Source of the DNA: Neolecta irregularis DAH-3
Taxonomy: Eukaryota
Direction: 5' to 3'
DNA: 43,821 nucleotides
Assembly: GCA_001929475.1 (NCBI GenBank)
Contig: LXFE01001036.1
Coordinates: forward strand, 1 to 43,821
Shown here piece after piece: positions 1,649-43,821 of the stretch. The first letter of the stretch is position 1; each line of letters starts with the position of its first letter. The notes beneath the pieces were generated by a model. The model worked only from the letters and a program-made list of their open reading frames with translations, was not told the DNA's origin and searched no databases. The translations under genes and the position numbers were made by a program.

Positions 1649-2732
1649 ATGCTGGTACCGCGCACACGAATATCGCTATTGCGTTCTGTCGCCTGCAAGA
1701 ATATATTTGCAGCTTGTAGTTTTATTTGGAAACCGTATTAATTGATAGAGGCATATTGCCACATCAGCCCCAGTGCCTATGGCCTCCGTATGAGTTGATC
1801 TTTGGCGATATAGCAATTCATGGGATGCAGGAAGTTCCTTCGCCACCTTCTCTATCCGAAAAACTGCCCTGCAAAGATTCACCGCAGATGAAGACATTCA
1901 GCATTTACCGTTGGGTCTGTCTCGTTTTTACATCGCCTCTCATCGACAGGATCCCGAAAAACCTGACGAGAAACCGAGAATGCAGAAGTACGTGGTCGAT
2001 TTGAATAGCTGCGGGCCAATGGTCCTTGACAGTATCATTAAAATCAAAAACGAACAAGATCCTACATTGACTTTCCGACGAAGTTGCCGCGAAGGCATTT
2101 GCGGGAGTTGTGCGATGAATATTAACGGCGTCAATACTCTTGCCTGTATCTGCCGAATCGAGTCGGATTCTTCTAAAGAATGCAAGATTTATCCTCTGCC
2201 CCATATGTATGTTGTCAAAGATCTTGTTCCGGATCTTACAAACTTGTATCTTCCTTGGTTGAATTTCTCAAGCCAACGAGCAGCTACAAACAGTACAAAA
2301 GCATCAAACCGTATCTCCAACGAAATGAGCATCCCGAACGCGAGAATCTTCAAAGTATCAAGGACCGACGAAAGCTGGATGGTTTATACGAATGTATTCT
2401 CTGTGCATGTTGCAGTACTTCATGTCCGTCTTATTGGTGGAATCAAGAAGAATACCTCGGACCAGCTGTTCTGATGCAAGCCTACCGATGCAAGTCTCTT
2501 TCCAGGATACTTTACTTATACATCAGGGCTTTCAGATTCTCGAGACCAAGCTTCATATGAGCGAAAGGAGATGCTCGAGAATTCAATGAGTCTATATAGA
2601 TGTCACACAATCATGAACTGTGCAGTATCTGACAAATGCTATTGTCCATGCTAATACCAGCGAACTTGTCCGAAGGGATTGAACCCAGGTTTAGCTATTG
2701 CGGAGATTAAGAAGGAAATGGCTCTCCATTAA
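1649..2732 (+). CDS. SDH2: Succinate dehydrogenase iron-sulfur subunit, 6 introns
   Basis: Motifs [53 protein letters not shown]. Introns include 1788-1830, 1915-1949 and GC-AG 2490-2526; intron 1 boundaries are ambiguous. Basic mitochondrial-type presequence. Confidence 0.97.
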
Positions 2733-3336
2733 GGGTTGGAAGCAATAGGAATTTGAAATAGCAACTCTTTTTACAATTGTTTTTTTGGTTTAATAGTCAA
2801 GGCCATAATCTCCAGCAATATACTCCAAGTTGGTTTTGTTTACTTGAGCAATGCACAGCTCCGATATAAAACCTCGGATTAAGTGCATGATGCTTAAAAC
2901 CTTGGCTAGCTTGCTTTTGTGATTATACTTGACTCCATCGAAAATGATGAATTTTAAAGTCATATGAGCAGAATCTATTACAAGAGAAAGCCAGTAATTT
3001 TTATATCACGGCAAGACTTCTCTGGGTAGCACATGAGAAGTCAACTCAACAAAGAAGAGAATATGGACGGGCGAAACGAAATTCTGGAGAAGTCACCGAG
3101 CTCATATATTTGTAATGAAAGATTTTGTGACACGTCGTAAACGCTGGTCTTTATGCTTTTATAGCAAGCTTATTGGGATATTGAAAAGGTAATGACCTTT
3201 AATCGGTGAGTTGCAGTTACGATTTCAGTTTCAAAATGTTTTTGAGATTCAGGGTTGCGTATTTCCTACATGCATTTACCAAATGAGTGTGACGGGAGAA
3301 AGCCAAAAAGACACATGGTTCCATCATTAGCTCTCA

Positions 3337-3723
3337 TCAATTACCTGAATGTCGAACCTGTCGTTTGCCTAATTGCAGTGTCTCCTTCCCATCACTTCGA
3401 TGCGAACTACTGGAGACTCCTCTAGCCTTTGCCAATGCAATGGAATCTACGGTTGCAGAGAACCTTAGAGGACCATGGCAGGGACTTGAGCACTCCTCTG
3501 AACTGGAACAGCTTGATACTGATGCCCTCTGCAACACAGGCGAGCAGTGTTTCTTTGTGACTTTGGTTTGAACATCATGAGGCAGCAGCGAACAAGGTCG
3601 GTCCTGACGTTGCCTCAGATTATTCGACACACTTTGAGATTCTTCTTCGACAGATACGGATTCCTGTCCGTGCTTTTTAGGGGTGTTTCCTAAAAACAGT
3701 GACTTCAGGTTGAGATGTGGCAT
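3337..3723 (-). CDS. Possible orphan Ser-rich protein (first exon or whole ORF, 128 aa)
   Basis: ATG-initiated ORF, divergent from CWC27, occupying an otherwise 1.3 kb empty interval; no recognisable motif; 3' end uncertain. Confidence 0.4.
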   Translation of the reverse strand: MPHLNLKSLFLGNTPKKHGQESVSVEEESQSVSNNLRQRQDRPCSLLPHDVQTKVTKKHCSPVLQRASVSSCSSSEECSSPCHGPLRFSATVDSIALAKARGVSSSSHRSDGKETLQLGKRQVRHSGN

Positions 3724-4025
3724 GATGATAGAGATATAAACAACAAATTTGATCGGCCTTGTAATTTTTTATGAAGATTTTAAAAGTTGGAATGAATGCC
3801 GGATGGAAGGGACAGTTGATGGGAAGGACGTTGCGTGCTAACTGATGGAAGTACAGGAAGGAAATATTTCGGAATCTGACTTCTTTCAGAAAGGTCATAC
3901 CACCGCTCGAAACCCTCCATCATTTAGTAGACGAAAGTCAAGACTGGTGTGGAACAAGCATTCGTTTATTTCTTGTTTCCACCTTGACAACGTCCAACCA
4001 ACTGCCACCTTCATAGACTGATAAG

Positions 4026-5590
4026 ATGACAGCTGTAGTCATTCAAGAGCCTTTTACCGAGTCTACTCTCTTCCCATCTATATATAGCTGACTGAATCAG
4101 GGGAAAAGTTCTTTTGTCAACTACAAAGGGCGATATCGAGATCGAACTGTGGCCGAAACAAGCACCAAAGGCTGTTCGCAATTTTGTTCAGTTGTGTATG
4201 ATCTGCACATAAAATATACTGATCGTAGGTCTCGAAGGATACTACAACAGCACGGTGTTCCATCGGCTTGTCCCGTCATTTATCCTGCAAGGTGGAGATC
4301 CAACAGGAACAGGAACAGGCGGTCAATCAATCTACGACGAACCGTTTCCCGATGAATTTCACTCCCGATTGCGATACTCCCGTCGAGGATTGGTTGGTAT
4401 GGCAAGTTCAGGACCTAGTGACAACGGATCTCAATTTTTCATTACGCTTGCCGCAACCCCGGAGCTCCAAGGGAAGAATACGCTATTTGGAAGAGTCATG
4501 GGAGATACAATTTTCAATATAGTGAAAATGGGAGAAGCAGATGTTGAGGGAGAGCGGCCTCTTTATCCTGTGAGGATCATCAAGTCTGAAGTGCTCTGGA
4601 ACCCATTTGAGGATATTGTACCCAGGATTTCCGAGCCTTTGCCCGTTGTGAAAGAAAAGGGTACTAAGAAAAAGGGAAAGAAGTGCGTTTGTACATGTGG
4701 GCTTGCTTACTTTTAGAAATAAAGCCCTCTTGAGCTTTGAAGACGAAACAGAGAAGGATGTTGTCACAAAGAAAATAGTCAGTATGCATGATGTTGGAGA
4801 TGACCCTCGGCTAGTCAAGGAAACCGCCCATCGAGAACAGAAGGAACGGCCTCACAATATAAACGAAGTCGCAAAATTGAAACCAGAATCTAAGGAAACT
4901 ACAGTGCCAGACCCGCCCAAATCAGAGAAAATGGAGATTATCGAGGTCGAATCAAACAAATCACCGCCACCGAAACGGAAGCAGAAACTGCCAGGAATAA
5001 ATGACTTGCAAGCTCAGATAGATGCTATGAAGAATAGTATCAGGAGTCTAGACGATCGAACGGTTGCCCCATCGGATTTGCACAAAGAAAAGAAGAAGTC
5101 AAGTTATCTCGATCTTGAACGCGAGAAATATAAGTCAGGCAAAGCAATCATTGGCAGGAAAAGAAAGAAACCTGGGAATGAGGCTGAAATTCTATCTGCC
5201 CTCGAAAGTTTCCGATCAAAACTTCAGGCTCCTTCAAGCGAATCTTCAGCGACCCCCGAAATCTCGAAATTTGGAGAAGTTTGCCCGTTACATCTTGTCC
5301 CAGGTTGTATGTCTTGTTTCGATCGATTAGGGGAGACCAATGATAACGAAGATTTGTCAGAGTTCACAGCCAGCCGCTCCTGGTTAAATCATTCATTAAC
5401 ATTCGGAAAAGATTATCTCGGTAAGGATGGAACGTATAAAATGCAAAGGGAAATGGAAAATTACGAAGTAATTGATCCTCGAGAACGTAAAGCGGAGGCG
5501 CGGAGGAAAGACAAGGAGTCAAGGAAGAGCGACGGGATTAGCAGGAGCTTTCGAAAGGAAGGGGGATGGAATGGCCGGAAAAATGATTGA
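4026..5590 (+). CDS. CWC27: Spliceosome-associated cyclophilin Cwc27, 3 introns
   Basis: EPFTEGKVLLSTTKGDIEIELWPKQAPKAVRNF, FHRLVPSFILQGGDPTGTGTGG, EFHSRLRYSRRGLVGMA, NPFEDIVPR, NKALLSF and C-terminal YEVIDPRE. Introns include 4196-4228 and 4683-4716. Confidence 0.93.
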
Positions 5591-5625
5591 TTCTAATAAA
5601 TTTCGTGTACAGTATTAAAGTCAAT

Positions 5626-6144
5626 CTACCCAAAAGCAGGCGTTGTACAATAATTGATCACCAGTTGATCTGCAACTTTGAAGCACTATCAGTAAGCATA
5701 TATCCCATAAGCACATACCTTGTACAGATTCCCCACTATCTCATCCGGAGCTGGGGCAAACGCTGAATTGACGTAGAGAAACTTGAATCTATCAGTGGAT
5801 ACTGACTGTGAACTTACCAGGCTATCCTTTGATGAGCATTGCAACTGTTTTCGTAGCCACCGACCAACAATATCAAACCTCTGTGTCGAAGAAACCGTAC
5901 AGATAGGCTGTTTAAGCATTTTTGTTGCCCCCACCGCTTTGAACAGTATTTTTACTATTGTTAACGCTGGTCGGCGAAAGGAAATACTCTTTACCTTTTG
6001 GCTGTCGGCAGAGTATTCTTGAAGGGCTGTCGATGCATCTATTGGAAGTTGGGAAAGGAGAACTGACTGTGAGATTGACTGGAGCGGATTTACTGGGGAT
6101 TCATCCGGAATTCGGGATTCGTTCAATGGCTGAAGTTGGCTCAT
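5626..6144 (-). CDS. ATG12: Ubiquitin-like autophagy protein Atg12, probably 3 introns
   Basis: FKAVG...FLYVNSAFAPAPDEIVGNLYK, then after an intron CFKVADQLVINYCTTPAFG*, ending in the conserved C-terminal Gly. Confidence 0.93.
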
Positions 6145-6963
6145 ATGAGGTATAGTAATGTTATTTGAGAACTGTCATGGAACCCGACCGGGCACAATAT
6201 GGATTTGTCGAGTATTTCTCGATAAGACACTATTTTAGTAGTAAACATTTGCGCAGTGGTCTTCATCAATTTGCTCTTTCGTGGAAGAAGATAAAGATAT
6301 CTCCGGATGTTCTTCTCAGCCCAATTATCTTGAATTCATTTTTAATTATTCTAACACTCATGTAACAATGATGCTCCCTGTAAGCGCGAGGGTCTGTAAA
6401 ACCTGGAGACTCTGCAATCAGAGTTTTATACAATCGTCATTTTGGATGAGTATATATCGCCATCTGTGGATGTTGTACAGAGATAACAAGGTGCTTATCC
6501 CTAATAAGGTCAATAGTCATTATTAGATTCCGATTGAGCGATATGCCATGTATGCTCCGATGGCAAATGACGGGTTATTTCGTCGAAGATGAAAAATGTG
6601 CTCAAGGACTAATATTGTAGTATATTCGTAGTTTCCTCACGATAATGATCTGATAGTATACTTGTTTGGTTAGCGGTTGGCCTTGCTGGCTGCAATCCTA
6701 ATTCTAGCACTGAAGAAGGCATCCTGTGATGACGGGACGAGGAACAAGGTCGTGTGAATGCTGCTGCGACATGACTCGAATCGGCCACGGATTGGTCGAA
6801 GAAGAAAAGCAGATTGAGATGAGCAAGATGGAATTATAGCGAATAAATACGAAGGGCAGAATCAAAAGAAATTGTCAGTCCCAAAACCAGGTGAGTGTGG
6901 ATTTATCAGGGAGTATAGGCTTATGGGTGGCTTGGTTAATTAGGGGCATCTAATTACGACAAG

Positions 6964-6981
6964 GAAGATTCTCGAAAGTTC
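6964..6981. promoter_or_regulatory. Perfect four-unit heat shock element (GAAnnTTCnnGAAnnTTC)
   Basis: GAAgaTTCtcGAAagTTC lies 20 bp upstream of TATAAA (7002-7007) and about 135 bp upstream of the HSP70 ATG. Confidence 0.9.
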
Positions 6982-7115
6982 TCAGACTCACCACCAGGCA
7001 ATATAAAGACAGCAATGTTCGCCCCTCCTCCTTCCAAGCCATTTTCGCTCAAGCAATCGAACCTTAATTCACTTAAGTATTTGTCCCTATCGGTTCTATC
7101 GCTGATATTCTAGGA

Positions 7116-9121: not shown

Positions 9122-9274
9122 AATCCTGTTGCTGCCTATTTTAGATGTGCATGTTAGTTTCTGGTTCTTGCTATATTTGCTTCTATTATGTAACTTGGAT
9201 GGAATTATAGAAGCTGCTTTGTCCACACGTGATCGCGCAATACTCCAGCCGCCGCTTGTCCGTCGATTTCTGTC

Positions 9275-12343: not shown

Positions 12344-13822
12344 ATGACGACTGTCGAGAAGATCAAGGAAATAGAGACGGAGATGGCTCGGACCCAGAAA
12401 AACAAGGCCTCTTCTTCGAATAATTGTGTTCTTATATTTTAGGCTACCTCGTTCCATCTGGGTCAACTCAAGGCCAAACTTGCAAAGCTAAAACGAGAGC
12501 TTTTGACCCCATCCACTGGAGGCGGGGGAGGGACTGGTGGTGTGATCTACCCTTTAAATTAAACTTGTCCTCAGATTGATAGTTGGCTTCGATGTCGCAA
12601 GAACCGGCGTCGCGTCTGTTGGGTTCATCGGATTTCCTTCAGTTGGTAAAAGCACGCTGATGAGTAAACTCACTGGAACTCACAGCGAAGTCGCTGATTA
12701 CGAATGTAAGGTTTGGTATGTGATGAAACTGATTGTCAAAAGTCACTACATTGACAACCGTACCCGGAGTTTTAACTTATAAAGGAGCAAAAATTCAGGT
12801 TCGAGAATCGCTCAGAGGGGTTTACTGATCAAGATTCTTGATCTTCCAGGGATCATTGAGAAAGCAGCCGAGGGAAAAGGGTAAAACACAGACCTGTGCA
12901 CAGTTGATACCAATAGTCGAGGTCGTCAAGTAATTGCTGTTGCACGAACCTGTCGACTCATTTTTATTATACTGGACGTTTTGAAACCCCTAACACATCG
13001 GGCAATTATCGAGAGCGAGCTTGACAATTTTGGAATTCGTCTCAACAAGGAACCGCCCGATATCACTATCAAGAGAAAAGAAAAAGGAGGATTGAATGTC
13101 ATGAAAACCGTTGCCCTTACGAAAATTTCGGACGAAGAGCTCAGAGCCGTCTTTAGCGAATATCGTATCAATAGTGCTGACGTAACCATCAAGTTCGATG
13201 CAACAATCGACGACGTGATTGATGTTATTGAGGGAAATAGGGTTCGTTGTGAATTCTCAAGTCTTCTGAAAGTCTATAGGTCTATATTCCCGCTATCTAC
13301 GTGCTCAACAAGATTGACCAGATTTCTATTGAGGAATTGGATCTCATTTACCGAATTCCACATGCAGTACCAGTTTCTGCAAATCATGTAAACCAAATGT
13401 CAGGTGATGGATAATTGATCAGTCAGGAGTGGAACTTTGACGAACTACTTGAAAGAATGTAAGGCGATACCTCGTCATATGTTAACATGTATAGGTGGAC
13501 TTATCTGAACCTGACAAGGGTTTACACGAAACCGAAAGGAAGACTTCCAGATTATGACGACCCGGTAATCCTACGGCAGGACGCGTGTACTGTGGAAGAT
13601 TTTGTACATCACTTGGACTAGAAATATCGGCTGATAATTCAGTGTAATCATATCCACAAATCCATCATGAAGCAATTTAAGCATGCCTATGTGTGGGGGT
13701 CGAGCGTGAAGCACAATCCCCAAAGGGTATCTAGGAATCACATTTTGGCTGACGAGGACGTAGTTACGAGTATTGGATCTTTAATTTTGGTTGTACTAAT
13801 CGGCATAGTTGTCAAGAAATAA
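12344..13822 (+). CDS. RBG1: DRG1-family ribosome-binding GTPase, 10 introns
   Basis: [53 protein letters not shown] tail [13 protein letters not shown]...DEDVVTIVKK*. Confidence 0.96.
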
Positions 13823-14077: not shown

Positions 14078-16798
14078 ATGAGCACGACCAAAATATCACC
14101 TCGATACGCGCATACTCCCGGTCAAACACGCTTGGCATATACTCCTGACGGAAAGTCATTAATCACGGTTGGATCAGACCAGCTAATTCGGAAATTTACT
14201 ATTGGATCAGACGACGAGCCCTTATCTATTGAACAGCACGAGGATGCCATCACTGGAATAGCGACTTCGGTATAATTTCGACTTGAATGTATATTCTGAG
14301 CAATTTCAGAAAGATCATTTTGCAACTTGTTCGGAGGATGCAACCGTCAATTTATTTTCTTTGCACGATGATGATAATATCAGTGTGAGAGAAAACACAG
14401 TTCTCTTGACAAGATGCACTCTACCAATCCGAGATGTAGCATTCAGCCCAGACGGAGCTTGGGTTGCTGTAGCTAGCGAGTACAATTCTTCTCTTCTGGT
14501 CGATCTGAACCTTTAGCGAAACAGTCGTTAAGATCATTAATACTTCAGATATGCTTCGAGTTATACAATTGAGAAATCAGTCAAGGTCCATCAAACATGT
14601 GACTTTTCATCCTGCTGGAACAGTAGTTTGTGCTTCTTGTACGGATGGAATTATCTATATTTATTCCTTGAGCACTGATGAACCGACGTTACTAAAAAAG
14701 TTGGATGGAGTTATACCGAGAGTCGAACCTGAGTCGGATATATCTTGTAAAGCGTTATGGCATCCGGATGGAAGAGCATTCGCTTGTCCTACAAACACTC
14801 GAGGCGCGATTTTCAATAGGGTTGATTGACCTATTAGATATCGTGGTTATTTCGCGGGGTGACTGGGAGCGCCAAAGAGTCTTCAAGTCTGGTCATAATG
14901 GCGACATTACGGATATTGCATGGTCTCCTAATGGTGCATACTTGGCGAGTGCCGCAACAGACGGCAAAGTCGTGATCTGGCAGTGCAGAGGGCAAACCAT
15001 TGTCACGACGTGGGTTGTTCTTGATATAGCCATCTAATAATCAGATTGAATTATCGTGATATCATCTGTCTCGCTTGGCATCCGTCGCAGAATGTTATAT
15101 CCTTTACATCGAATCAAGGTCACCTATATACGATACCCCAGGTTCTTCAACCGAACCACACTCCTTTGCCATATGGAAGAGCGGTTCATCCCTGTCCTCT
15201 TTTGGAAGATCAAGAAGATGTTACACTGCTGGAACCGAGAGATTCTCCAATGCAGGTGGACGATGTTCATGTGCCTGATATGGAACTGGGCAATGTTTCA
15301 GACAGTTGGATTGAGGATGACGACGGAGCCGGTTATATCCCCGATCTCTCTACCCGAAAACGACATGCAACCGATTTTGACGCACCGCAATTTAAAAGAC
15401 GAGCATATGGATCCGTACAAGCAAATATACACGAGTCATTTCAACCTGGAAGCACGCCGTGGAGAGGAAGCCGGAGATATCTGGCGCTGAATTTGACTGG
15501 AGTTGTTTGGTCCGTCGACCAAGAAACTCATAACACTATCACGGTTGAATTCTTCGATACCGGTACTCATCGTGGCTACCATTTCACAGACCATTTCAAA
15601 TATGACAAAGCTTGCCTAGATACGTACGGGGCTGTATATTCCAGTCCTGCAATCGGGGAGAGCGGTGCGATTATCCACTATCGACCCAATGAAACCTGGA
15701 CCGAGAAGCAAGATTGGCAAGTGGTATTGCCTCGAGGCGAGGAAATCACTTGTATTCAATTTTATTCTGAAATTCGCTAACTATTAGCGTTGGCGTTGAG
15801 TCATACCAACATCGCTGCTTGTACTTCAAAGGGATATGCGAGAGTGTATACTTTGAGTGGTGTTCCCGTAAGGATATATCGGCAGAAGCATGTGCCTGTT
15901 GTTGTTTGTGCTGCCTGGAAAAACTATATTATGGTGGTTGGAAACGGTCCACAGAAAGCTGACGGTTTGTAACAATTTGAATCAGTCTAAAGTAATAGGG
16001 ACAACCGAGCTTATATATAATATCGAAGATGTCAGTGCTGATATTACATGTCAATCAAATGATATTGTTGCAATACCTAGTGGCGGTGAACTGAAATCAT
16101 TGTTTTTCTCGGAGAATGGTGTATTTTCAGCGCTATTTATATAATTTTTGACATGTAGGATCCTATGATATACGACTCGGACGGTATTCTTTTAGTGCTC
16201 TGGCGTTGGCGCACTCCTGGATACGCTAAATGGGTTCCACTACTGGATACTAATTCAATGGCGCGGAGAATAAACAAAGAAGAATCCTATTGGCCAGTAG
16301 CTGTCGCTCAAGAAAAATTCCATTGTATCATTTTGAAGGTACATATTTTGTGCAATACGCTGTTAACTCTAGGGCGGCGATAAATATCCATACTTTCCTC
16401 GACCATTGTTTTCAGAATTTGATCTCTGCGTACCAACAAGTGAAAGATCAGATAATCCTTCCTCGGCCATAGCTCTTGAGGAAGGTTTTGTGCGCAATTA
16501 TACTTTGTATTCACTTGGCGAAGATGCCTTACAGTCACGGGCTCGCAGCATCGAGCTTACCGATATGGATGTCGTCAAAAAAGAAGTTGCGATTGATAAA
16601 ATTCTTTTACAACTGATAAATTTGGCCACACGAGAAGATCGGGCGGCCAGAGCATTAGATCTCACAACATTGTTGAGAAAAGAACGTAGCGTCGATTTGG
16701 CTATCAAGATTGCGGAACGGAATGATAAAACACTTCTCGCTGAACGGATGGTGGAGTACAGGGATGGATTGCGTGAACCAGATATTGAGGAACTTTGA
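14078..16798 (+). CDS. CTF4: Replisome hub Ctf4/Mcl1 (WD40 + SepB), 8 introns
   Basis: RYAHTPG start, WD repeats, SepB motifs FQPGSTPW, RYLALN, WVPLLD, ESYWPV, GGDKYPYFPRP. Confidence 0.93.
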
Positions 16799-18111: not shown

Positions 18112-18143
<32 letters not shown>

Positions 18144-19684: not shown

Positions 19685-20923
19685 ATGAGTGACGACGAAA
19701 CTCGGGTACGGGTTTACAATTCTATAACTAACTGATAGCCGTACGTTGATGCCAGGCCGGAGGGACTGGATGAGTCTGATGATGAATTGTCCGAGTTGGA
19801 TGAGGAGCAATTCAAGGGTATTGATGAATCGAATTTGGGCAAGGTAGCACCTACTGTTGTACTCCCTAGTTTCAAAAAGAACAAACAGATTGGGGAGAGG
19901 GAGAAGAAGCCTAAAGGACAGAGGAGACGGCGTGAGGATATTACAGAAGAGGAGATTCAAGAGCAAGCTCCTCTGGATCCGATAGCCGGTTTGGGTATCT
20001 GCGAGTTGACTCTGATGAGCAGCCAAACAAAAAGAGCTGGATGAGCAGTTTAATGTTGCATTAAAGGCGAAAAAGAGGAGGAAGCGGATGAATGAGGATG
20101 TATGTGTGGAAAAAGAGAGGGGCTCACCAGGCAGGATCTGGAGAAATTTGCCGACGACGAGATCAATGCACTGCGGGAAAAGATGCGGGAAGCGGCGTAC
20201 GCGGACCAGACGGCGAACGATGCCAAGCAGGCGGCGACGACCAAGCTCAAGATGCTTCCTGAGGTGCTGGATGTGCTGCAGCGGTATAGCACGGGATGAA
20301 TATATACGCTAACCGCAGGTCTACGTTCTACGAGGCGATGCTTGATCTGAATTTCCTGGAGGCGATGAAGATGTGGCTGGAGCCGCTGCCGGACAAGTCG
20401 CTGCCTGCGTACGATATCCAGCGCGAGCTCTTTTCCGCCCTGTCGCGGCTGCCCATCCGCACCGACCATCTGCGCGAAAGCAAGATCGGACCGCTGGTGC
20501 AGTTTTACGCGCGCAGCAAGAAGGCAGACGAGTCTGTGCGCCGCATGGCAGAGAAGCTAATTTGTGGGCCTTGAATTGGATATTAGCGGGGCTGACCAAG
20601 CAGCGGACTGGTCACGGCCGATCATGCGGCGCAGCAACGATTTCCGGTCGCGGGCGGTGGCGCAGGTGGACTGGAGTGCGCAGGAGCGGGTGGTGGCTGA
20701 GAGTGGCGGTGCACTTGGCGGTGGCGGTGCCTCTCGTGGCGGTGCTTCGCGTGCGGCGGTGCCCCGGGCGAGTACTGCGAGCTACAGCGTGGCGCCGCGG
20801 GCGATTCTGCCGGCGAGCACGAGCAATGCGCAGACGGTGGCGGTCGACCAGCGGCGGCGGCTGAATGCGTTTATGAAGACCAGCAGGCCGCCGAGAAAGG
20901 CGGGCGGCGTGCGGATCAACTAG
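19685..20923 (+). CDS. IWS1: Transcription factor Iws1/Spn1, 5 introns
   Basis: Acidic N-terminus; ATTKLKMLPEV, WLEPLPDKSLPAYDIQ, LRESKIG, DWSRPI, YSVAP. Confidence 0.94.
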
Positions 20924-21114
20924 CAGGCGGGATTCTCGCGATCTGTATAGATATCCTTATAGATCTGTATAGATCTGTATTGGTATCCAGGTTGACCTGA
21001 TGGAATAACTAGCTACTCTGTGTTTCCCTGGAATGATTAGCCACTCGGTATTTCCCCGCACGAGACACGTGCAAGTACAACATCCCGCCAGAACCTGCTC
21101 CTTGTTTTCTACCA

Positions 21115-23386
21115 ATGAGCTCTGAGATGCCCTTTTCCATTCGCCGCCCCTCGTACGAAACCCCGCCCGCGCCCCAGGCGTTTGCTGTTCCCGGATCGCA
21201 GCAGCCGGGATACTCGGCCGTCTACCGCCATGTCCTCGCCCGCGACGGCCTGCTCGCAGTCCTCGACCCCGCAGTCGTCACCGTCTTTGACATGTTTGAG
21301 CATGGCTGCCGCAAAAACCCCAATGCCCATTGTCTCGGCCACAGAGAGTTTGATCCCGTATCTAAATCCTGGGGGCCCTACCTCTGGCAGACCTACGCGC
21401 AGGTCAGAGTGCGGCGCGACAATTTCGGCGCCGGGCTCATAAACATTGCCCGCGAGTTCGCCCGCCCGCCTTCGCCAAAGTTCCATGTGGGCATCTGGGC
21501 ACCCAACCGCCCCGAATGGACGATCGCCGACCAAGCCTGCCAGGCCTGGTCGCTCACCACCGTCGCCCTCTACGACACGCTCGGCCCAGATACCACGCAG
21601 TACATCGTCAACCATGCAGAGCTCGGCGTGCTTGTTACCGTCGTCGAACACATCCCCCAGCTGCTCCAGATGGCACACAAGATGAAATCCCTCAAGGTCA
21701 TCGTTTGCATAGACCCCCTCGACCACGGCGAACTGCCGGGCAAGAGCAAACAGGCTTTGCTTGGCGAATGGGCAAAGAGCAAGGGCGTCCATCTGGTCGA
21801 CTTTGGTCACGGTTGCCTCCTCTCATCCCGTCCACTGATCTCCCAGTCGAGGCTCTGGGACAAGCATCTCCCGTAAAACACAACATTCCTCAACCCCCCG
21901 ACATATCTACTATCAACTACACCAGCGGAACAACAGGGCTTCCAAAAGTATATAATTCCTGTCCTTCAATATTGACTCCAGGGCGTGGTCATCACCCACG
22001 AGAACGCCGTTGCTCCTGCGAGCTCCCTGCAACTCGTTCTCACTCAAAATACTAATGACGTCACCCTGTCCTACCTCCCACTAGCTCATTGCTACGAACG
22101 AAACTGTGAAAATGTAGCACTCTATGCAGGCGCAGCAATCGGATTCTTCCACGGCAATATCCTCGAGGTATCTCGATCTGTTAGTTACATGTCCTAATAG
22201 TAGATCCTCGACGACATTCAGACTCTAAAACCAACAGTCTTACCTTCCGTTCCCCGTCTCCTTTCGCGAATCGGCGCTGCAATTAAAATGGCTACCATCG
22301 AAGCGCCCGGTCTCAGAGGTGCCATTTCCCGCAAAGCCCTCGCTGCAAAACTTGAAAAAATAAATCAAGGCGGGGACAATCATCATATGCTCTGGGACGC
22401 CCTTTGGAGCAGAAAGATTAAAAAAGTTTTAGGTGGAAATATCAGGCTGATAGTTACCGGATCGGCTCCGATTTCTACTGAACTGCTCCAATTCCTTCGA
22501 TGCGCGTTGGCTTGCGATATCGTTGAAGGATACGGACTCACGGAATCAGTTGCTTATGTCCTTGTTGGAAAACCCGGCGATACTAATCCAGGCCACTGTG
22601 GACCTCCAGGTCCCTGCTTGGAAATTCGTTTTTGTGATGTTCCAGACATGGGCTACACCTCGAATGATTTACCTCATCCTCGAGGAGAGCTCTTATTTCG
22701 TGGACATAACAGATTTTTGGGATACTACAAGGATGAAGAAAAGACTCGAGAATCAATCGACCCAGACGGCTGGTTTCATACAGGCGATATCGCTAAAATC
22801 GATCAGCTCGGACGTGTTTATATCATTGATCGCGTAAAAAACTTTTTCAAATTGAGTCAAGGAGAAGTATTGACCCTTTGACATAAACCTATTAACCTCA
22901 GTACATCGCTCCTGAAAAAATCGAAAATATATACGCAGAGTGCAATTTACTTGCACAATTATTCGTTCATGGAGATTCACTTCAATCTTTTCTAGTTGCT
23001 ATCGCAGGTGTCAACCCCGATTCTTTTGCCCCATTTGTTTCAAAATTACTCGGTCAAAATATACCTGCTACAGATCTCGCAGCAATTTCCTCTGCCTGCA
23101 AGGAACGAAAAGTACGACAAGCAGTGTTGAATGAATTGAACAAGATTGCCAAAAAAGCTAAATTGAATGGTTTTGAACAGATTAAGAATATCATGCTTTT
23201 TATTGAGCCGTTTAATATTGACAATGACCTTTTGACGCCAACGTATTATATCCTATTTTTGAACTTTTGTTGATGATTAGATTCAAGGTTAAACGATTCC
23301 AAACTGCTCTATTTTTTCGAAAGGAAATCGATGACATGTACGCGGAATCGCCTACTGATGTTAAACCCTTACTCGGAAAATTGTAG
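21115..23386 (+). CDS. Long-chain acyl-CoA synthetase, FAA2-like, probably peroxisomal (C-terminal GKL), 5 introns
   Basis: YTSGTTGLPK/G, SYLPLAH, GYGLTES, GWFHTGDI, IIDRVKNFFKLSQGE/YIAPEKIE; ends ...LLGKL*. Confidence 0.93.
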
Positions 23387-26815: not shown

Positions 26816-28302
26816 CTATTTTGGAGAAAGTTCATCGGCGTAAGGTAATAGGTATGTGTCTCCGAGAGCAACCAAGCTTGCTTTATTTTTCAGTAAATTC
26901 GTGGCAGCCTGACACATTAATTAGATAGTAGAAGTAATTGGATTATACCGATTTCACCTGAGCAAATGTAACCTTATCTAATTCAGCGACGACTTCCTGA
27001 GTCTTCACAGAGGTGGATTCGCCAATCAGAGATTGCCCAATCTTTTCTACGGCACTCGTTCGTTCATCAAAAGCGTTGGTGAATTGAAATTTAGTTTGTG
27101 CGATAGCTCGTTTCACATCTACTTCTCGAATGCCCTCGCCCTTGGAAATTAAATGGACAGTCTGAACAACAGCTTTGGCAAGCTTAGTTATAGTGGAGGA
27201 AGGTCCAGCCAACGTGACAGTGAGAAGTCCAGCGTCGGTATGCGTGATATGCTGAGCAAATGCGGAGACTTCATTGCCAAGCTTGCCAGCCAGCTGTGAT
27301 AACAAGGTATTGCCGGCCGACCACTTTATAGATGATTTCCCCCCCAAAAGGTTGGCTAGAATGCCGAGCTCTGGCGATCCAGCAAGAGGCGATGAAGCTC
27401 CAGGGAATGCGAGAATAACAAGGGACTCCTTTGAAGGGCCGTTGATTCGTACGTCGCCGCCGTAATAAGTAGTTCCTGATATTTGTGCAGGGGAACCAGA
27501 TGGGATTTTTGCAAAATGCTGCTGAACCAGATCTTTTAATTCAGTAGAGTCAGCGCCAGTTGCAACAATGCTCAAGTTTCCGGAAATATAGCTCTTGTTT
27601 GCAAAGGCTTTGACATCTTGAAGAAGAACGGGATATTGAGGGTTTGAGTAGAGAGTATTTCCGAGACCCCTTCTGAAAGCCACGTTATGAAGGGCGTCAC
27701 TGGTAATATCAAGCGTACTTAGGGAAGAGTATTGAAGAGCAAGTTGCGGAATGACATCTTCTGTGAATATGTGTCCTGCAATCAGAATGTGCAATTGACG
27801 GGGTATGGGCACGTTCTAGCTTTGTTTTGGTGAGAGTATCTCCCAGTAATTGAACGTAGTAAGGAAGATCTTCCCGGAGAAATTCAGCAGTGAGGATAAT
27901 ACTATCTCGAGTGACGGACGATGACAACTTACCGCCGAGAAGCTCTGATTCTCGGGTTATCCGTAGAGCAGTTCGCTCTGACGTAGACTACATTCCCCTT
28001 AGCGACCAGTTTCGAACCGGAGAATTAAAGATATTTGCGAGGAACGGGATGTCTCGAATGCGACGTACCTTGAACGCAAATCTCTCCAAAATGTGAGCGA
28101 GACCCGGAATAGGCTGGTATCTACTTCCAGCTCGAACAACGACAGACAAGGCAGCGGTTGGTCTTCCGTCATCTCTAGACGCAATCTTGATGCCATTCGT
28201 TTGGCCGACGTGAAATGAAAACGGAGAAATCTGTGCAACAGTCGCCATAGCTCTCGCAAAACTGCAGCGAGGTGCCATACTATAGACTTTTGATCGAAGC
28301 AT
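26816..28302 (-). CDS. QCR2: Cytochrome bc1 core protein 2, 3 introns
   Basis: VVVRAGSRY, GLAHILERFAFK/ST..RTALRITRESELLGG, FLREDLPYYV, LHNVAFRRGLGN, LLGGKSSIKWS, GDTYLLPYADEL. Confidence 0.95.
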
Positions 28303-33749: not shown

Positions 33750-34323
33750 ATGTCTAAGGAAGAAATCGATAAATTAACAAGAGAAGAGTTATTTGAAAAG
33801 TATAAAACTTATAACTGGGATGAAGACCAGGACTTTCAGGGAAGGGTTTCAAAGCTCTATGGCTGATTATATTAGGAAGGTATTGCTAAGCTAAGAAATG
33901 AAACCCCTCAGACCAATTATGAATACCAAGACTTAAAAGAAAGAGCGAAGCTCTACTTCTTCTCGAGGCATTATACTATGACATAACCTTTGGTGACATT
34001 TGAAGGAAGTATGATTCAATTGACCTTCGGGAATACCAGATATGGCTCAATGGAAACCAATACTTTGTGAATGGTGATTCGCGAGTCCGAGAAGCAGAAC
34101 TTCGCCAACAAGCTTCAGCTAGGGAAGAAAATGCTCAATATCCAAAGTCTTTCACAGAGATTGTGGAAATGATACAAAGCGGGAAACCAATCCCAGGTTT
34201 GTCTTACCTTGTGGATATAAACTGATCTGAGGCATTCGAGAAATTCCGGATAAGGTGAATAATCAGTCCTCCTCTTTACCAACCCTCCGATCGCCACGAA
34301 AGCCATGGGAAGAGACGGTCTGA
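33750..34323 (+). CDS. PEX39: Pex39 (YJR012C/C6orf226-like) PTS2-import factor, 3 introns; only exon 1 appears in the ORF track
   Basis: YNWDEDQDFQ/EGIAKL, KERAKLYFFSR/K...IDLREYQIW, YPKSFTEIVEMIQSGKPIP/GIREIPD and terminal RKPWE motif. Confidence 0.83.
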
Positions 34324-34368
34324 ATCAATCATTTTGAGACAATTAGTATTAATATCGAATAAGACTCA

Positions 34369-35587
34369 TTATTCCATCAGTTCGTCCAATTCCCTCTCTT
34401 CATCATCTGTAATCTCTGCTCGTTTGTTTTCCAGAGCGGTAATCTTGAACTCAATTTTCGGATCTAAAACGTCCTTCAGTGGCCATTGTCGGATTGTCTG
34501 GTCCAATGATGCTGATATGAGATTCTGTCCAGCAATTTGAAGAGCGACTATGTCGTCGAAATGTCCCTCGATCTTTTTGATTAGTTTTCCGGTCTATTAT
34601 CAGCACGACAGACCGGACGAAGAAAACCTCAATATTCCACACTCGAATATATTCGTCTCGGCAGGCGGTGATTGCATGACCTTGATATATTACCACATCT
34701 CTTGTATAATCTCCATGTTCCAACTTAATCTCTTCCTTAATACCATGTGCAAGATCCCATCGTCTAACAGTTCTGTCTGCAGATGCTATTGAATTTTAGG
34801 AATATTCTTCATAGTCGTGCATACCTGTCCACATCTCATTATCAAATATTTTTATTCGATAAACACTGGTTTCATGTCCTATATGGGCATCTCCGTCTTC
34901 GCAAGCCGTATCTCCAACTTTCCATCTTCTAATTTCTCTGTCACTGCCAGCACTCCATATCCAAACATGTCCACTATCCGGACATGACGTATCAAGGGCC
35001 AAATCTTCAACACCTCGTGTATGACCTTTGAGAACGAATACTTTACGATGATAGTTTTCCAAGTCCGGACGAATTTCCCAACCAATAATCGATTTGTCTG
35101 AAGATCCAGAGAAAAGCATGTTCAGTTGGGGTACATATAGAAGACATTTGACGAAATCACTATGCTTATCTAGAGTAGCTAGACAATCACCAGTCTTCAG
35201 GATCATTGACTGTTTAACAAGAGATATACCTCTGCGTTCCACATCTTGATAGTGTTATCCCAACTTCCTGTATAAAGTCGTTTATCTTTGTCTATGTTGG
35301 CCAATACAACAGAGGTAACAGGACCGCTATGACCACGATATATGCTCTTAGCCTTTGACTAAAAAGGTTGATGACATGTTAATTGGCCTTGGATATACTT
35401 TCAGGTTGATTTTCACAGCGATATTTGCGGCGCCCCCGATGTAAATGATGTTTTCATCTTTGTCATCTACCGTGAGCGCGAGTATCTTGGTTGTGAGGCG
35501 AAAGGGGTTTCCGTTTTCATTATTAGCCTTGAGCCCTTTCAGTTCTGCGCTTTTAATGTTTTGATCTGACTGAAAGAATTGTGACAT
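34369..35587 (-). CDS. Uncharacterised fungal WD40-repeat protein, 4 introns
   Basis: MSQFFQSD start; repeated GH...W[DN] units (YRGHSGPVT...TGSWDNTIKMWN; HSDFVKCL; GHTRGVEDL; GHETSVY); acidic tail ITDDEERELDELME*. Confidence 0.88.
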
Positions 35588-35822: not shown

Positions 35823-38800
35823 TTAGCCAGCCAATACTGCTTGAACTTGTGGCTGTATGAGTGGTAAGATTCGACGTTGAATGCCACCGGCTGCTGGAAG
35901 CAGTGACCAGCGCATAAGATATTCGTCAACTTCTCGAGCACATTGCCGTCCTTCCTGAATCCCCCAAACGACAAGCGATTGGCCTCGCCGACAATCACCT
36001 GCAGCGAAGACTCCCGGTGCGTTTGTTGCATAGGAACCTTTGGGAGTCTGTATATTTGTGCGAGGGTCCACCTTGAGGCCCAGGCCAGCGATAGCCTTTT
36101 CTTCGGGGCTATTCGATTATTGAATATTCAGTATGAATGAGATATACCCCAAAAATCCCATTGAAAGTAACACCAAGTCTGCAGGAAAAAACTCCTCGGA
36201 GCCAGCCATTTGTTTCATATTCCACTGCCCCTTATCGTTCTTTGTCCATTCAACTCGATAAGTCTGAATAATTAGTAAGATAATCATAGCTTAGGCGTGC
36301 ATTAATTCCCTTGACATTGCCATTGCCATCGGAGACAAACTCTCGACTCATAATACAGTATTCTCGAGGATCTTTTCCATAATGAGCGGTACATTCAGCA
36401 TGACCGTAATCAACTCGGAAGATTCGAGGCCACTGAGGCCATGGGTTATCCTTGGCTCGAGTTGCCGGTGGTTGCGGCAGCAATTCGAAATTGACCACAG
36501 ATGCAGCACCATGACGAATAGCGGTTCCGATGCAATCATTACCTTTTCATCAGCGTATATTCTGGATCCCAAACATACCAGTATCTCCTCCGCCGATAAC
36601 TATAACATTCTTGCCTTTCGAGTTGATATACTTGCCGTCTTCCAAGTTCGAGTCAAGCAAGCTTTTAGTGTTTTGATGAAGGAACTGCATAGCAAAATGG
36701 ATTCCATTCAAATTCCGATTGGAAATGTTGAGATCACGGGGGACTGTAGCGCCTGTAGCAACGATAACCGCGTCGGATTCTGATTGGATTTGAGCAGAAT
36801 CTATGTCTTTTCCTACTTGTATGTTGCATTGGAAATCGATTCCCTCATCTCTCATCAATTGAATGCGTCTTTGTACTATAGATTTCTTAAAACGTGAGCA
36901 AGGCCGAGTTCAAAAGGCAAACCTCGAGTTTCATTTGCGGAATGCCGTACTGAAGAAGCCCACCGGCTCTATCAGCTCTTTCATAAACGACAACATGATG
37001 ACCGGCCTTGTTGAGCTGGTCTGCAGCAGCTAAACCTGAAGGTCCAGAACCGATGATGGCCACCCGTTTTCCTGTTCGCGTTTTAGGTGGTCTGGGAATT
37101 ATCCAACCCATCTCGAATCCACGATCAATGATGGCGCATTCAACACTTTTGATTCCAACAGGCTGTTCATTGATGCCAAGCACACAAGCTCCTTCGCAAG
37201 GAGCAGGGCATATTCGACCCGTAAATTCGGGAAAATTGTTTGTCATGAGCAGACGATTGAGGGCATCTTGCCATTGTTCTTTGAATACAAGTTCGTTCCA
37301 TTTGGGGATAATGTTGGAGATGGGACAACCAGTTTCGCTTTGGCAGAATGGAACCCCGCAATCCATACATCGAGCAGTCTGAACGCGGAGTTCAGCAGTG
37401 GTCAGACGGGTGGAGATTTCATTCCAGTTCTTGATCCTCTTCTTGGGATTCCGGTATTTCTCGGTTTGTCGTGAATACTTCATGAAGCCACGAGTTTTGT
37501 CGAGGACATTGGATTTCCGTTCTTCAGATTTTTGATCGATGATACTATCCTCAACGTCAAGGAGTGTAGGCTCCGACCTCACAACTTTCTCTTCAACTTC
37601 TTTGAGGGTTTGAAGCTGAAAAGGATTCTCGGACTCTTCGCGTATTCCGTTTCCTGCTACTAGCGGAAGTTTAAATTTGTTAGCTCGACGTTGTGCTTCA
37701 TTGGCTGCTTCCTCCTGAAGAACACGTTTATAATCGGTAGGTAGGACTTTAACAAAACGTGGGAGGACATTATTGAAATTAGACAAGATGCGATCGGCTA
37801 GTGTCGATCCGGTAAAGTGACGGTGGTCCTCGATCATGCCTCGCAAAAAAGCGATCTCTCTGGGATCAGTGAGAGCCGAAAGCTCCACCATTTCCATGTT
37901 GACCTTGGATGGGAAATTGCGAGCCATGTCCAAAACATATGCAATACCGCCAGACATTCCTGCAGCAAAGTTGCGGCCAGTATTTCCCAAAATGACACAC
38001 CTGCCGCCTGTCATATATTCGCAACAGTGGTCACCAACACCCTCAACAACCGCAGATGCTCCAGAGTTCCGTACGCAGAACCTTTCGGCCGCCACTCCTC
38101 TAAAAAAGCACTGTCCAGATGTAGCACCATATAAACAAACATTTCCAATTAATATATTTTCTTCGGACTTGAAAACAGCCTTTTTGGGAGGGTAAATGAT
38201 TAAACGGCCGCCTGAAAGACCTTTGCCAACGTAGTCATTTGAGTCACCTTCGAGTTCAAGGGTAACGCCGGAAGCAAGAAAGGCACCAAACGACTGACCA
38301 GCGGAACCAGTAAGATTGACATGAATTGTATCTGCAGCAAGACCAGCTTCGCCGAATTTCCTACTGATTCGGTTGGAAAGAGTGGTTCCAACGGCACGAT
38401 CTGTGTTGAGGACATTACACTCAACATGGGATGGAAGACCCTTCTCGAGAGAAAGTTCTGCTTCATCAATTAACTTGTTGTCTAAGCGAGTATGAAGTCG
38501 ATGGTCTTGTTTCCGAACACAATAAGTACTTACTCCAGGTCGAAGTTGATGTGCGGGAATGAGAATGGGGGAAATATCCAAATTGGCTGTTTTTGGTGTA
38601 CGAAGATCCTCTCGGACATGAAGAACCTCACAACGTCCAACCATTTCATTAATTGTTCGAAACCCGAGCTTGGCCATGATCGCTCGCAATTCTTCGGCTA
38701 TGAAATAGAAGAAATTGATAATATGCTCTGGTTGACCAGTGAACTTTTTTCGTAGCTCAGGGTCTTGAGTGGCAATTCCAACCGGGCAAGTATTCTGAAA

Positions 38801-42505: not shown

Positions 42506-42589
42506 AGGAATGACTGAGAGAAAACAAGACAGAAAGCGGGAAAAGAAGTGGAACACTGTTTTTATAGTTCTCTATGCGTGAGGGTTTGA

Positions 42590-42824
42590 TTATCACGCGC
42601 CACTCCGATATGCTCCGAGTTGATGGCTTTTGATAAGACCTCCCTGTGCCTAAATAGAAATTCGGGAGTGTATCAAGATTTTATATAATGTCAATACTAT
42701 CTAGTTGCCTAACAAGGCAAGATAACAGCGCAACAGATCCCATCCAAATGCGGCTATCTGTCTATCTGGTGTTCTGATAGACTAAATATCGACTGAAAAG
42801 GGGCAAAGGCAAGCAGACAGATAA
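42590..42824. promoter_or_regulatory. Cluster of GATA elements upstream of GLT1
   Basis: GATAA/TTATC at 42590, 42632, 42721 and 42820; GATAG/CTATC at 42697, 42754, 42762 and 42776. Confidence 0.55.
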
Positions 42825-43129
42825 AGAAAAGTTTTTCTGCCGAGTTCTGATCAAGACTTGACAATCGTTTTGATGCAGCACAAATCAGGGCATGGTTGTG
42901 ATGTAATAAGCTATGACAATTACATCAGTCTCATGACCGTTCTGGCCATGAGTTGTTCGTAGCTAGAATCTAGTGTACTGTGGATCACTTATAGTGCGGC
43001 TCATTACAGAATAAAGGGGTTGGTGATGAGCAAGGTTGTGATATTATTACAAGGGCGTGCAGGCAAGTATATTGTGATATGAAGCAATATCATCATTTCA
43101 CAATTGCACAGGCAAGATAAGTTTGAATA

Positions 43130-43821
43130 TCAAGTACATCCATCTTCACAAGGATGGATAATGATCTAATGATTAGATATGTAAACAGTGAACAAACCTT
43201 TGTTGCGCTTACACCTTTCTTCTGCATGGCGAGTGCATCGGGCACTCCTCTCAACCCCCCTTTAGCTACTTTAACAGGCGGAGCAGTAACAATAGTTTCC
43301 TGGATCAAAGCTTCTTTCAAAAAGTCATTGAATAGCCATTTCCCAAGCGCTACACTTGTCTAAAAGTGTTAATGAGACATGACTAAACTCACCTTGTGAA
43401 CTGAACCTCCGAAACACTGGTAAACTTTCACGTTATCGGGGACTGTTGCGTTTACAGGAAGAACAGCCACCATTTTTCCTCCATGAGGCTGTAGAACTTG
43501 CATGCATTTTTCGATACTGCCGTTCTCTGAAATAGCGTCATAAATAACTTGAATTTTCCCCTCTTTTTTTATTTGCTCGACGACATCTGAATCGTGATAA
43601 TCAAAATTTTTGGATGCTCCAAGACTAGTAAGATAATCGTGGTTATGCTTTGATGCGGTAGTAATTACATGGTATCCCGCCTGCAAGATTAGACAAGATA
43701 ATTGGGAAAACATGCATGGTTTGCAAGTTGTATGGCCATTACACCGACGCTGCTCGCGCCACCCCAGACAAGGAGGGTTTGCTTTCTTTCCTTGGGCATA
43801 GCGGGCTTGGACGAGGGTCGT
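43130..43821 (-). CDS. MDR-family (zinc-type ADH-like/enoyl reductase-like) oxidoreductase, 3' part (5' end outside window), at least 3 introns
   Basis: LLVWGGASSVGVMAIQLA, AGYHVITTAS, LGASKNFDY, YDAIS, GVSATK/IIIHP. Introns include GC-AG 43681-43715 and 43166-43197. Confidence 0.88.

What the first reader, a model, noticed from the sequence alone, without database searches (positions are those of the whole stretch)
2490..43715. Unusually frequent and non-consensus GC-AG introns
Seen: at least 6 of roughly 100 inferred introns need a GC donor to restore conserved protein: SDH2 2490 (GCAAGT), RBG1 12407 (GCCTCT), CTF4 14804 (GCGCGA), PEX39 33968 (GCATTA), GLT1 36300 on - (GCACGC) and the MDR gene 43715 on - (GCATGT). 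Established: GC-AG introns are usually around 1% and compensate with a near-perfect U1 match, but four of these do not. Many GT donors are also degenerate (GTCTGT, GTCTAC, GTGCCC, GTTGCC, GTGGGC, GTTTTC). Inference: a spliceosome that defines introns mainly by length and branch point, with minimal 5' splice-site pairing.
Basis: partly seen in the sequence, partly recalled or inferred. Interest (0 to 1): 0.75.

Follow-up and report, generated by a model that had tools for sequence, protein, structure and literature searches.

The report
Frequent GC-start introns in Neolecta
In this stretch of the fungus Neolecta irregularis, six of about ninety tiny introns begin with GC instead of the usual GT, several times the normal share, and published gene models that ignore this lose conserved protein segments.

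Summary
The window is a whole 43,821-bp contig of Neolecta irregularis DAH-3.

- **SDH2:** solved-structure alignment is contiguous across the junction.
- **RBG1, CTF4, GLT1:** homology-only junction scans beat the best GT-AG option by 28, 13 and 23 bits.
- **PEX39-like:** it is the only G[TC]-AG option near the junction.
- **MDR:** Pfam and structure alignments fit the GC donor.

My model of the contig has 92 introns, 86 GT and 6 GC (6.5%; 95% interval 2.4-13.7%). P is 3e-4 against a 1% baseline and 0.011 against 2%.

Introns are tiny (median 37 nt). A yTnAy branch site lies 6-10 nt before the AG, and the donor is weak beyond G-Y-A. GC donors show no compensating match at other donor positions.

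Both NCBI models I could check avoid the GC donor and lose conserved residues.

No genome or RNA data were available, so the genome-wide rate and any change in the spliceosome remain untested. Verdict: observation confirmed, mechanism only partly supported, moderately interesting.

The parts
2490..2526 (+). GC-AG intron (37 nt, GCAAGT...CATCAG) in the SDH2 gene, phase 1, splitting a Trp codon
   Evidence: The upstream exon aligns to 9lig_B up to residue 181. Residue 2 of the downstream exon aligns to 184. The split codon T|GG (W) and the following L fill 182-183. The best GT-only model deletes 32 aa including [12 protein letters not shown].
12407..12442 (+). GC-AG intron (36 nt, GCCTCT...TTTTAG) between RBG1 exons 1 and 2, phase 0, ending in an in-frame TAG
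   Evidence: Homology-only scan of 1184 donor/acceptor pairs with a 48-sequence HMM: 85.6 bits, the only pair ending in AG within the top tie. The best GT-AG pair scores 57.3 bits. NCBI model P0121 lacks exon 1.
14804..14837 (+). GC-AG intron (34 nt, GCGCGA...TATTAG) in CTF4/Mcl1, phase 1
   Evidence: Scan of 1322 pairs with a 51-sequence HMM: 148.5 bits, against 135.4 for the best GT-AG pair and 123.8 for the annotated GT pair. All 39 aligned homologues keep the six residues that NCBI model P0001 deletes.
33968..34005 (+). GC-AG intron (38 nt, GCATTA...TTGAAG) in a PEX39-like gene with a KPWE domain
   Evidence: No GT-AG pair in a +/-40 nt scan keeps the frame open; the best G[TC]-AG pair is this one (46.1 bits). 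The spliced product aligns across the junction with P0243 (35% identity over 153 aa). KPWE_dom E 1.2e-7. It survives a -5 nat penalty in the gene finder.
36264..36300 (-). GC-AG intron (37 nt, GCACGC...ATTCAG) in GLT1, phase 0
   Evidence: Unique top of 1158 pairs (166.8 bits, against 144.2 for the best GT-AG). In 77 of 80 metagenome GLT1 loci the two exons are contiguous with zero gap at this point. The other 3 loci have a GT intron of 33-38 nt at the same site.
43681..43715 (-). GC-AG intron (35 nt, GCATGT...TTGCAG) in a medium-chain dehydrogenase/reductase gene that is cut by the contig end
   Evidence: The downstream exon starts at ADH_zinc_N profile position 14. The upstream exon ends ...WGGASSVGVMAIQLANH, which aligns to the nucleotide-binding helix of AntE, though weakly (E 0.1). 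The GT alternative at 43742 deletes VMAIQLANH. It survives a -5 nat penalty.
1915..1949 (+). Degenerate GT donor (GTCTGT), SDH2 intron 1
   Evidence: Gene model. The downstream exon starts at Fer2_3 profile position 9.
4061..4100 (+). Degenerate GT donor (GTCTAC), cyclophilin gene
   Evidence: Gene model only.
20564..20603 (+). Degenerate GT donor (GTGGGC), IWS1-like gene
   Evidence: Placed by hand: it joins ...MAEKLI to DWSRPIMRRS.
21812..21846 (+). Degenerate GT donor (GTTGCC), acyl-CoA synthetase gene
   Evidence: Gene model. The flanking exons carry AMP-binding.
27776..27812 (-). Degenerate GT donor (GTGCCC), M16/QCR2-like gene
   Evidence: Gene model.
34594..34627 (-). Degenerate GT donor (GTTTTC), WD40 gene
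   Evidence: Gene model.

Best explanation
The six sites are genuine U2-type GC-AG introns of Neolecta irregularis, and GC donors in this organism are several-fold more frequent than the usual 1-2%. Shown: each GC-AG pair is the excision that restores conserved protein. Shown: introns here are about 37 nt long, with a yTnAy branch site 6-10 nt before the AG and a donor that is weakly constrained beyond G1, T/C2 and A3. Shown: GC donors do not match the donor consensus better than GT donors do. Inferred: the whole intron is probably recognised as one short unit (5' end, branch site and AG at a near-fixed spacing). Pairing to the U1 5' end is already short for ordinary GT donors, so a T-to-C change at +2 costs little. 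GC donors would then persist without compensating changes at other donor positions. Gene predictors that allow only GT then choose wrong sites.
For: Organism: (P0001, 100% identity, contig length 43821). SDH2. RBG1: (85.6 against 57.3 bits). CTF4: (148.5 against 135.4 bits; 39 of 39 homologues). GLT1: 166.8 against 144.2 bits; 77 of 80 loci contiguous; 3 of 80 with a GT intron at the same site. PEX39-like. MDR. Method check: in 21 of 23 homology-scanned junctions of RBG1, CTF4 and GLT1, a G[TC]-AG pair lies in the top-scoring tie. Control: I allowed all 16 donor dinucleotides and penalised non-GT by -2, -3, -4 and -5 nats. The non-GT donors kept were 11 (4 GC), 7 (3 GC), 5 (3 GC) and 3 (3 GC). 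Rate: 6 of 92 modelled introns, or 6 of 80 in genes named by Pfam or homology; the P values are. No donor compensation: donor-flank score for GC is 1.78 against 1.30 for GT (Mann-Whitney p 0.36). Annotation errors at 2 of 2 NCBI models examined. The pipeline was MAKER with AUGUSTUS, SNAP and GeneMark-ES (supplement of PMC5309816).
Against: This is one 44-kb contig, examined because it was flagged. Against the 1.85% GC-AG of a hand-curated fungal annotation (PMC11590231, passages), P is only about 0.01. There is no RNA evidence for any junction. Of the 92 introns, 26 were checked against homologues and 66 rest on my own gene finder, whose signal model was trained on the same window. The MDR and PEX39-like cases are thinner: one weak structure match at E 0.1, and a single homologue. 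In the PEX39-like scan, non-canonical pairs scored higher (51.8 bits) than the GC-AG pair (46.1). GC introns do score slightly higher at the acceptor (p 0.008) and overall (p 0.03; n = 6), so some compensation elsewhere is possible. The mechanism is inference only.
Confidence: 0.65

Rival explanations
1. The six GC-AG introns are real, but the contig is a chance outlier. Genome-wide, Neolecta has the ordinary 1-2% of GC-AG introns, and nothing is special about its splicing beyond short introns.
For: At a 2% baseline, P(>=6 of 92) is 0.011, which is not extreme for a window picked out of many. A curated fungal annotation reaches 1.85%. All 8 homology-scanned GLT1 introns in three environmental fungi with the same tiny-intron layout are GT.
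Against: The point estimate is 6.5% with a lower 95% bound of 2.4%. The six lie in six different genes spread over 41 kb. Four of six lack the strong donor flank that GC-AG introns show elsewhere (PMC1557818 passages), which fits relaxed selection rather than rare tolerated exceptions.
Confidence: 0.25
2. Some of the six are not GC-AG in the cell. Either the cell uses nearby GT donors, as the NCBI models do, and makes shorter proteins, or the C at +2 is an assembly error.
For: NCBI models built with RNA-seq evidence use GT 14786 for CTF4 and skip RBG1 exon 1. No reads could be inspected.
Against: The GT alternatives delete residues that homologues keep: 39 of 39 for CTF4, the Cys cluster of SDH2, and 13-28 bits of profile score. 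For the PEX39-like junction no GT-AG option exists. The assembly has 199-fold coverage (PMC5309816, passage). Six independent T-to-C errors falling exactly at +2 of introns are very unlikely. From my own knowledge, SNAP and GeneMark-ES model GT donors only, so the models' choice is no evidence of use.
Confidence: 0.07
3. A lineage-specific change in the machinery (U1 5' end, U1C, Luc7, U6 ACAGAGA, U5 loop 1 or Prp8) has relaxed reading of donor position +2 and of the donor flank.
For: Indirect only: the weak donor flank and the uncompensated GC donors.
Against: Untested, because no genome or snRNA gene was available. Weak donors are general in intron-rich species without such changes (PMC8476143 passage). 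Position +2 is still only T or C, and no other dinucleotide survived the control.
Confidence: 0.15

Closest known systems
U2-type GC-AG introns of animals, plants and fungi
   Same: GC at +1/+2, AG at the 3' end, an ordinary yTnAy branch site, and positions shared with GT-AG introns in relatives. The GLT1 site is GT in 3 environmental fungi. Subtype switching between GT and GC is common (PMC1557818 passage).
   Different: The share here is 6 of 92. Elsewhere it is 0.37-0.86% in five model species (PMC1557818), GT-AG is 98.7% in fungi (PMC7072748), and GC-AG is 1.85% in curated Ganoderma lingzhi (PMC11590231). Elsewhere the rest of the GC donor matches the consensus better; here it does not.
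Weak 5' splice sites of intron-rich species (Irimia, Penny and Roy 2007, as cited in PMC8476143)
   Same: Neolecta has 4.3 introns per gene (supplement of PMC5309816) and a degenerate donor.
   Different: In this window the weak donor goes together with very short, length-constrained introns and a branch site only 6-10 nt from the AG.
Lineages with frequent non-GT donors, such as GA-AG in Eurytemora affinis and Oikopleura dioica
   Same: A non-GT donor class at a level of several percent (3.2% GA-AG in one species; PMC7072748 passage).
   Different: There the GA donor is flanked by a highly conserved AG upstream and A downstream. Here the variant is GC and has no strengthened flank.
U12-type GC-AG introns (GCATCC donor)
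   Same: They begin with GC (PMC1557818).
   Different: None of the six has GCATCC (the donors are GCAAGT, GCCTCT, GCGCGA, GCATTA, GCACGC and GCATGT). Their branch sites are the same yTnAy type as in the GT introns.

Membership tests
U2-type GC-AG spliceosomal intron | GC at the 5' end and AG at the 3' end of a segment whose removal restores the conserved reading frame | tested here: met
   Six of six: SDH2; RBG1; CTF4; PEX39-like; GLT1; MDR, the weakest case.
U2-type GC-AG spliceosomal intron | A U2-type branch site (yUnAy) upstream of the AG | tested here: met
   Five of six have yTnAy 7-9 nt before the 3' end (CTTAT, CTTAT, TTGAC, CTAAT, CTAAT). 33968 has GTGAC.
U2-type GC-AG spliceosomal intron | The rest of the donor matches the U1-complementary consensus better than GT donors do. 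This is typical of the class rather than strictly defining. | tested here: not met
   Matches to CAG|..AAGT are 5, 3, 3, 3, 3 and 5 of 7, against a GT mean of 3.06. Donor-flank score p is 0.36.
U2-type GC-AG spliceosomal intron | Spliced RNA showing the junction | not testable with these tools
U12-type (minor) intron, including the GC-AG subtype | A [AG]TATCCTT or GCATCC donor and a TCCTTAAC-like branch site | tested here: not met
   The donor hexamers do not fit; none is GCATCC. The motif definitions are from PMC1557818 and from my own knowledge.
Assembly or annotation artefact | A GT-AG alternative that explains the protein equally well | tested here: not met
   The best GT-AG alternatives lose 28.3, 13.1 and 22.6 bits, or 32 aa (SDH2) and 9 aa (MDR). 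None exists for the PEX39-like gene.

The most novel reading that the evidence does not exclude
Genome-wide, 5% or more of Neolecta's roughly 24,000 introns (5,546 genes x 4.3 introns per gene) are GC-AG without donor compensation. The spliceosome would then read donor position +2 simply as a pyrimidine. It would fix the 5' cut mainly by its distance of about 37 nt from a strong branch-site/AG module, not by U1 pairing. More than a thousand introns, and up to a quarter of the published gene models, would be mis-annotated.
Probability: 0.3. Interest if true: 0.7.

Novelty: new variant of a known kind. Interest (0 to 1): 0.5.

Why it matters
GC-AG introns are normally rare exceptions that compensate for the +2 mismatch with a better donor flank. 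A fungus in which they reach several percent with no such compensation would be a natural case of relaxed 5' splice-site reading in very short introns. That bears on how intron-definition splicing picks its 5' end.

There is also a practical side. Neolecta is a key taxon for studies of fungal multicellularity and for phylogenomics. Six of the 21 genes modelled on this contig hold a GC intron. Both public models I could check are wrong at that intron: CTF4/Mcl1 loses six conserved residues and RBG1 loses its conserved first exon. If the rate holds genome-wide, a sizeable part of the public proteome carries small deletions or truncated ends.

I found no paper that mentions GC-AG together with Neolecta or with the other Taphrinomycotina terms I searched. 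The main text of the genome paper does not contain the words intron or splice.

Tried and rejected
- **Whole genome:** none is held, so there is no genome-wide donor logo and no snRNA or splicing-factor check. Rfam found nothing in the window.
- **Metagenome scan with a CTF4 exon:** no relative was found.
- **Gene finder with all 16 donor dinucleotides at equal weight:** 62 introns, of which 40 were GT, 4 GC and 18 others. On reading the listed sequences, many of the others are small shifts of an adjacent GT donor (for example 42386 CG beside 42389 GT), favoured by the sharp length model. This run was therefore not a clean control and I replaced it with the penalty series.
- **Non-GT candidates rejected:** 20282 CG is a shift of GT 20284. 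27995 GA is displaced by the 81-nt GT intron at 28068; that choice rests partly on my recalled yeast Qcr2 sequence and was not tested. 20568 GC is displaced by GT 20564. 18199 GC lies in a Val/Ala-rich model that I discarded.
- **PEX39-like junction scan with one homologue:** resolution was low. Non-canonical pairs scored up to 51.8 bits against 46.1 for GC-AG, and the first junction (33846) was unresolved at 7.7-13.7 bits.
- **Representative search for PEX39-like relatives:** only 3 hits, one of them usable.
- **Pfam on the short exons flanking the junctions:** mostly nothing.
- **Earlier findings of the scan:** none for this genome, and none relevant by words.
- **Gene name not confirmed:** I first read orf24007 as MAK10-like; Pfam did not confirm it on the exon tested.


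Full report
**What the window is.** A CTF4 exon (15046-15750) is 100% identical to an NCBI protein named 'Minichromosome loss protein 1 [Neolecta irregularis DAH-3]', whose longest contig is 43,821 bp, the length of the window. The window is therefore a whole contig of that fungus.

No genome is held for it. No RNA run was listed. Rfam finds no RNA gene in the window.

I read passages of the main text and the supplement of the genome paper (PMC5309816). It reports 14.5 Mb, 44% GC, 199-fold coverage, 5,546 genes, 4.3 introns per gene and a mean intron length of 42 bp. Annotation was by MAKER with AUGUSTUS, SNAP and GeneMark-ES, using RNA-seq evidence. The words intron and splice do not occur in its main text.

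**How I modelled the genes.** I wrote a dynamic-programming gene finder. It uses codon log-odds trained on the long ORFs of the window, plus an intron model made of donor flank, acceptor, branch-site matrix with distance, and length.

For genes with many relatives I used a second method that ignores splice signals. I built a profile from full-length homologues. I then enumerated every donor/acceptor pair within about 40 nt of the exon ends that keeps the frame open, whatever its dinucleotides, and scored each spliced peptide against the profile.

In 21 of the 23 junctions of RBG1 (9), CTF4 (8) and GLT1 (6), a G[TC]-AG pair lies in the top-scoring tie. At one CTF4 junction it is 0.4 bits below the top. 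At another (about 15010) the scores are flat and the site is unresolved.

**The six GC donors.**

- **SDH2, 2490.** The upstream exon aligns to the solved SdhB chain 9lig_B up to residue 181. Residue 2 of the downstream exon aligns to residue 184. The split codon T|GG (Trp) and a Leu fill 182-183. The best GT-only model removes 32 residues, including the CxxCxxCxxxCP cluster.
- **RBG1, 12407.** The profile used 48 of the 119 relatives returned, those of 360-372 aa. Of 1184 pairs, the GC-AG pair scores 85.6 bits and is the only member of the top tie that ends in AG. The best GT-AG pair scores 57.3.
- **CTF4, 14804.** The profile used 51 relatives of 790-870 aa. Of 1322 pairs, the GC-AG pair scores 148.5 bits. 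The best GT-AG pair scores 135.4 and the annotated GT pair 123.8. I aligned 39 relatives: those of 780-900 aa among the first ids, minus the window's own model. All 39 keep the six residues (xPTxTRD) that the GT model deletes.
- **GLT1, 36300.** The profile used 16 relatives of at least 1500 aa. Of 1158 pairs, GC-AG is the unique top at 166.8 bits; the best GT-AG scores 144.2. Of 392 metagenome relatives, the best 80 loci were kept. In 77 of them the two exons are contiguous with zero gap exactly at this point. In the other 3 there is a GT intron of 38, 34 or 33 nt at the same site.
- **PEX39-like, 33968.** The gene carries a KPWE domain. No GT-AG pair keeps the frame open. GC-AG at 33968 is the best G[TC]-AG pair at 46.1 bits. 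With a single homologue, however, some non-canonical pairs score higher (51.8). The spliced protein aligns across the junction with P0243.
- **MDR, 43715.** The downstream exon starts at position 14 of the ADH_zinc_N profile. The upstream exon ends with the GGxxxxGxxAIQLA helix, which matches AntE only weakly (E 0.1). The GT alternative deletes nine residues of that helix.

Five of the six introns have lengths that are not multiples of 3. The sixth ends in an in-frame TAG.

**Rate and controls.** My final list has 92 introns in 21 genes, 86 GT and 6 GC. In the genes named by Pfam or homology the count is 6 of 80.

- The 95% interval is 2.4-13.7%.
- P(>=6) is 3.4e-4 at a 1% baseline, 1.3e-3 at 1.3% and 0.011 at 2%.
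- I allowed all 16 donor dinucleotides and penalised non-GT donors by -2 to -5 nats. The surviving non-GT donors fell from 11 to 3. At -5 nats all three were GC (33968, 36300, 43715). SDH2 and the CTF4 5' part were not yet modelled in that run.
- Only 26 of the 92 introns were checked against homologues. The rest rest on my model.
- Regions 1-1800 and 5600-7100 have no confident model.

**Signals.**

- Intron length has a median of 37 nt, a 10th-90th percentile range of 34-40, and a maximum of 81.
- Donor: G1 in 92 of 92, T2 in 86 and C2 in 6, A3 in 62, T4 in 51, G5 in 41, T6 in 45, and G at -1 in 52. That is about 1.9 bits outside positions 1-2.
- In the 23 homology-scanned introns, +5 is G in 12 by my count, so the weakness is not an artefact of the gene finder.
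- A yTnAy motif with its A 6-10 nt before the 3' end occurs in 65 of 92 introns, against 14.9 +/- 3.5 (maximum 27) in 500 shuffles of the intron interiors.
- GC donors do not have a better flank than GT donors (1.78 against 1.30 nats, p 0.36). They match the canonical flank at 5, 3, 3, 3, 3 and 5 of 7 positions, against a GT mean of 3.06.
- The acceptor score of the GC introns is somewhat higher (p 0.008) and so is the total score (p 0.03), with n = 6.

**Comparison with what is known.**

- GC-AG introns make up 0.37-0.86% of U2-type introns in five model species. There the rest of the donor matches the consensus better, 'apparently compensating' (PMC1557818, passages).
- Annotation-based surveys give GT-AG at 98.7% in fungi (PMC7072748, passages).
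- A hand-corrected Ganoderma annotation gives GC-AG at 1.85% (PMC11590231, passages).
- Weak donors in intron-rich species are a known trend (PMC8476143, passage).
- No paper in the library holds both 'Neolecta' and 'GC-AG'. No listed paper combined GC-AG with the other Taphrinomycotina names I searched.

The six are ordinary in kind: U2-type, not U12-type, and none has GCATCC. They are unusual in share and in lacking donor compensation.

**Consequence for public models.** The NCBI CTF4/Mcl1 model (P0001) uses GT at 14786 and reads ...GRAFAYIVVISRG, losing six conserved residues. The NCBI RBG1 model (P0121, 349 aa) starts [12 protein letters not shown] and lacks the conserved 21-residue first exon. 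Those are the only two models I could retrieve, and both avoid the GC donor.

**Reading.** The most likely explanation is that these are real GC-AG introns in an organism whose very short introns are recognised as a unit, so that the donor flank and the T at +2 are under weak selection. That last step is inference. A chance outlier contig is the main rival (about 0.25). Lineage-specific spliceosome changes could not be tested at all.

Noticed in passing
window 14078-16798 (+) and 12344-13822 (+): The NCBI models of CTF4/Mcl1 (P0001, 804 aa) and RBG1 (P0121, 349 aa) are wrong at the GC introns. One deletes six conserved residues and the other drops the conserved first exon. My models give 811 aa and 380 aa.
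   Followed up: yes
L054:1741-1778, L073:648-681, L074:1741-1773 (metagenome GLT1 loci): Three environmental fungal contigs have 33-38 nt introns with CTAAC or CTGAC 6-9 nt before the AG, at the same GLT1 positions as Neolecta. All 8 introns scanned there start with GT. These are unknown fungi with a Neolecta-like intron layout.
   Followed up: partly
window 17602-17638 (-): In an NDUFA8-like (CHCH) gene, the only start codon I could find is split by an intron (AT | 37-nt intron | G). This is my reading of the sequence and is not verified. Pfam found no family in the main exon.
   Followed up: no
window 20001-22000: GC content rises to 58.8%, against 40-46% elsewhere. The stretch covers the Gly/Ala/Arg-rich C-terminal exon of the IWS1-like gene and exon 1 of the acyl-CoA synthetase. 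A long antisense ORF (21109-21792, -) is probably a shadow of that exon.
   Followed up: partly
window 27988-28068 (-): The 81-nt intron in the M16/QCR2-like gene is the longest in the contig and about twice the next longest. A 30-nt alternative with the same acceptor would keep 17 extra residues. My choice rests on a recalled yeast Qcr2 alignment.
   Followed up: no
window 26542-26551: A run of 10 N, an assembly gap, lies in an intergenic or unmodelled stretch.
   Followed up: no
window 24007-25935 (+): A 529-aa gene with 9 introns has no Pfam match in the 153-aa exon tested. It is intron-dense and unnamed.
   Followed up: no
window 1-1800 and 5600-7100: No confident gene model. A small three-intron ORF at 5626-6144 (-) and several weak ORFs appear, so the intron total of 92 may be a slight undercount.
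   Followed up: partly
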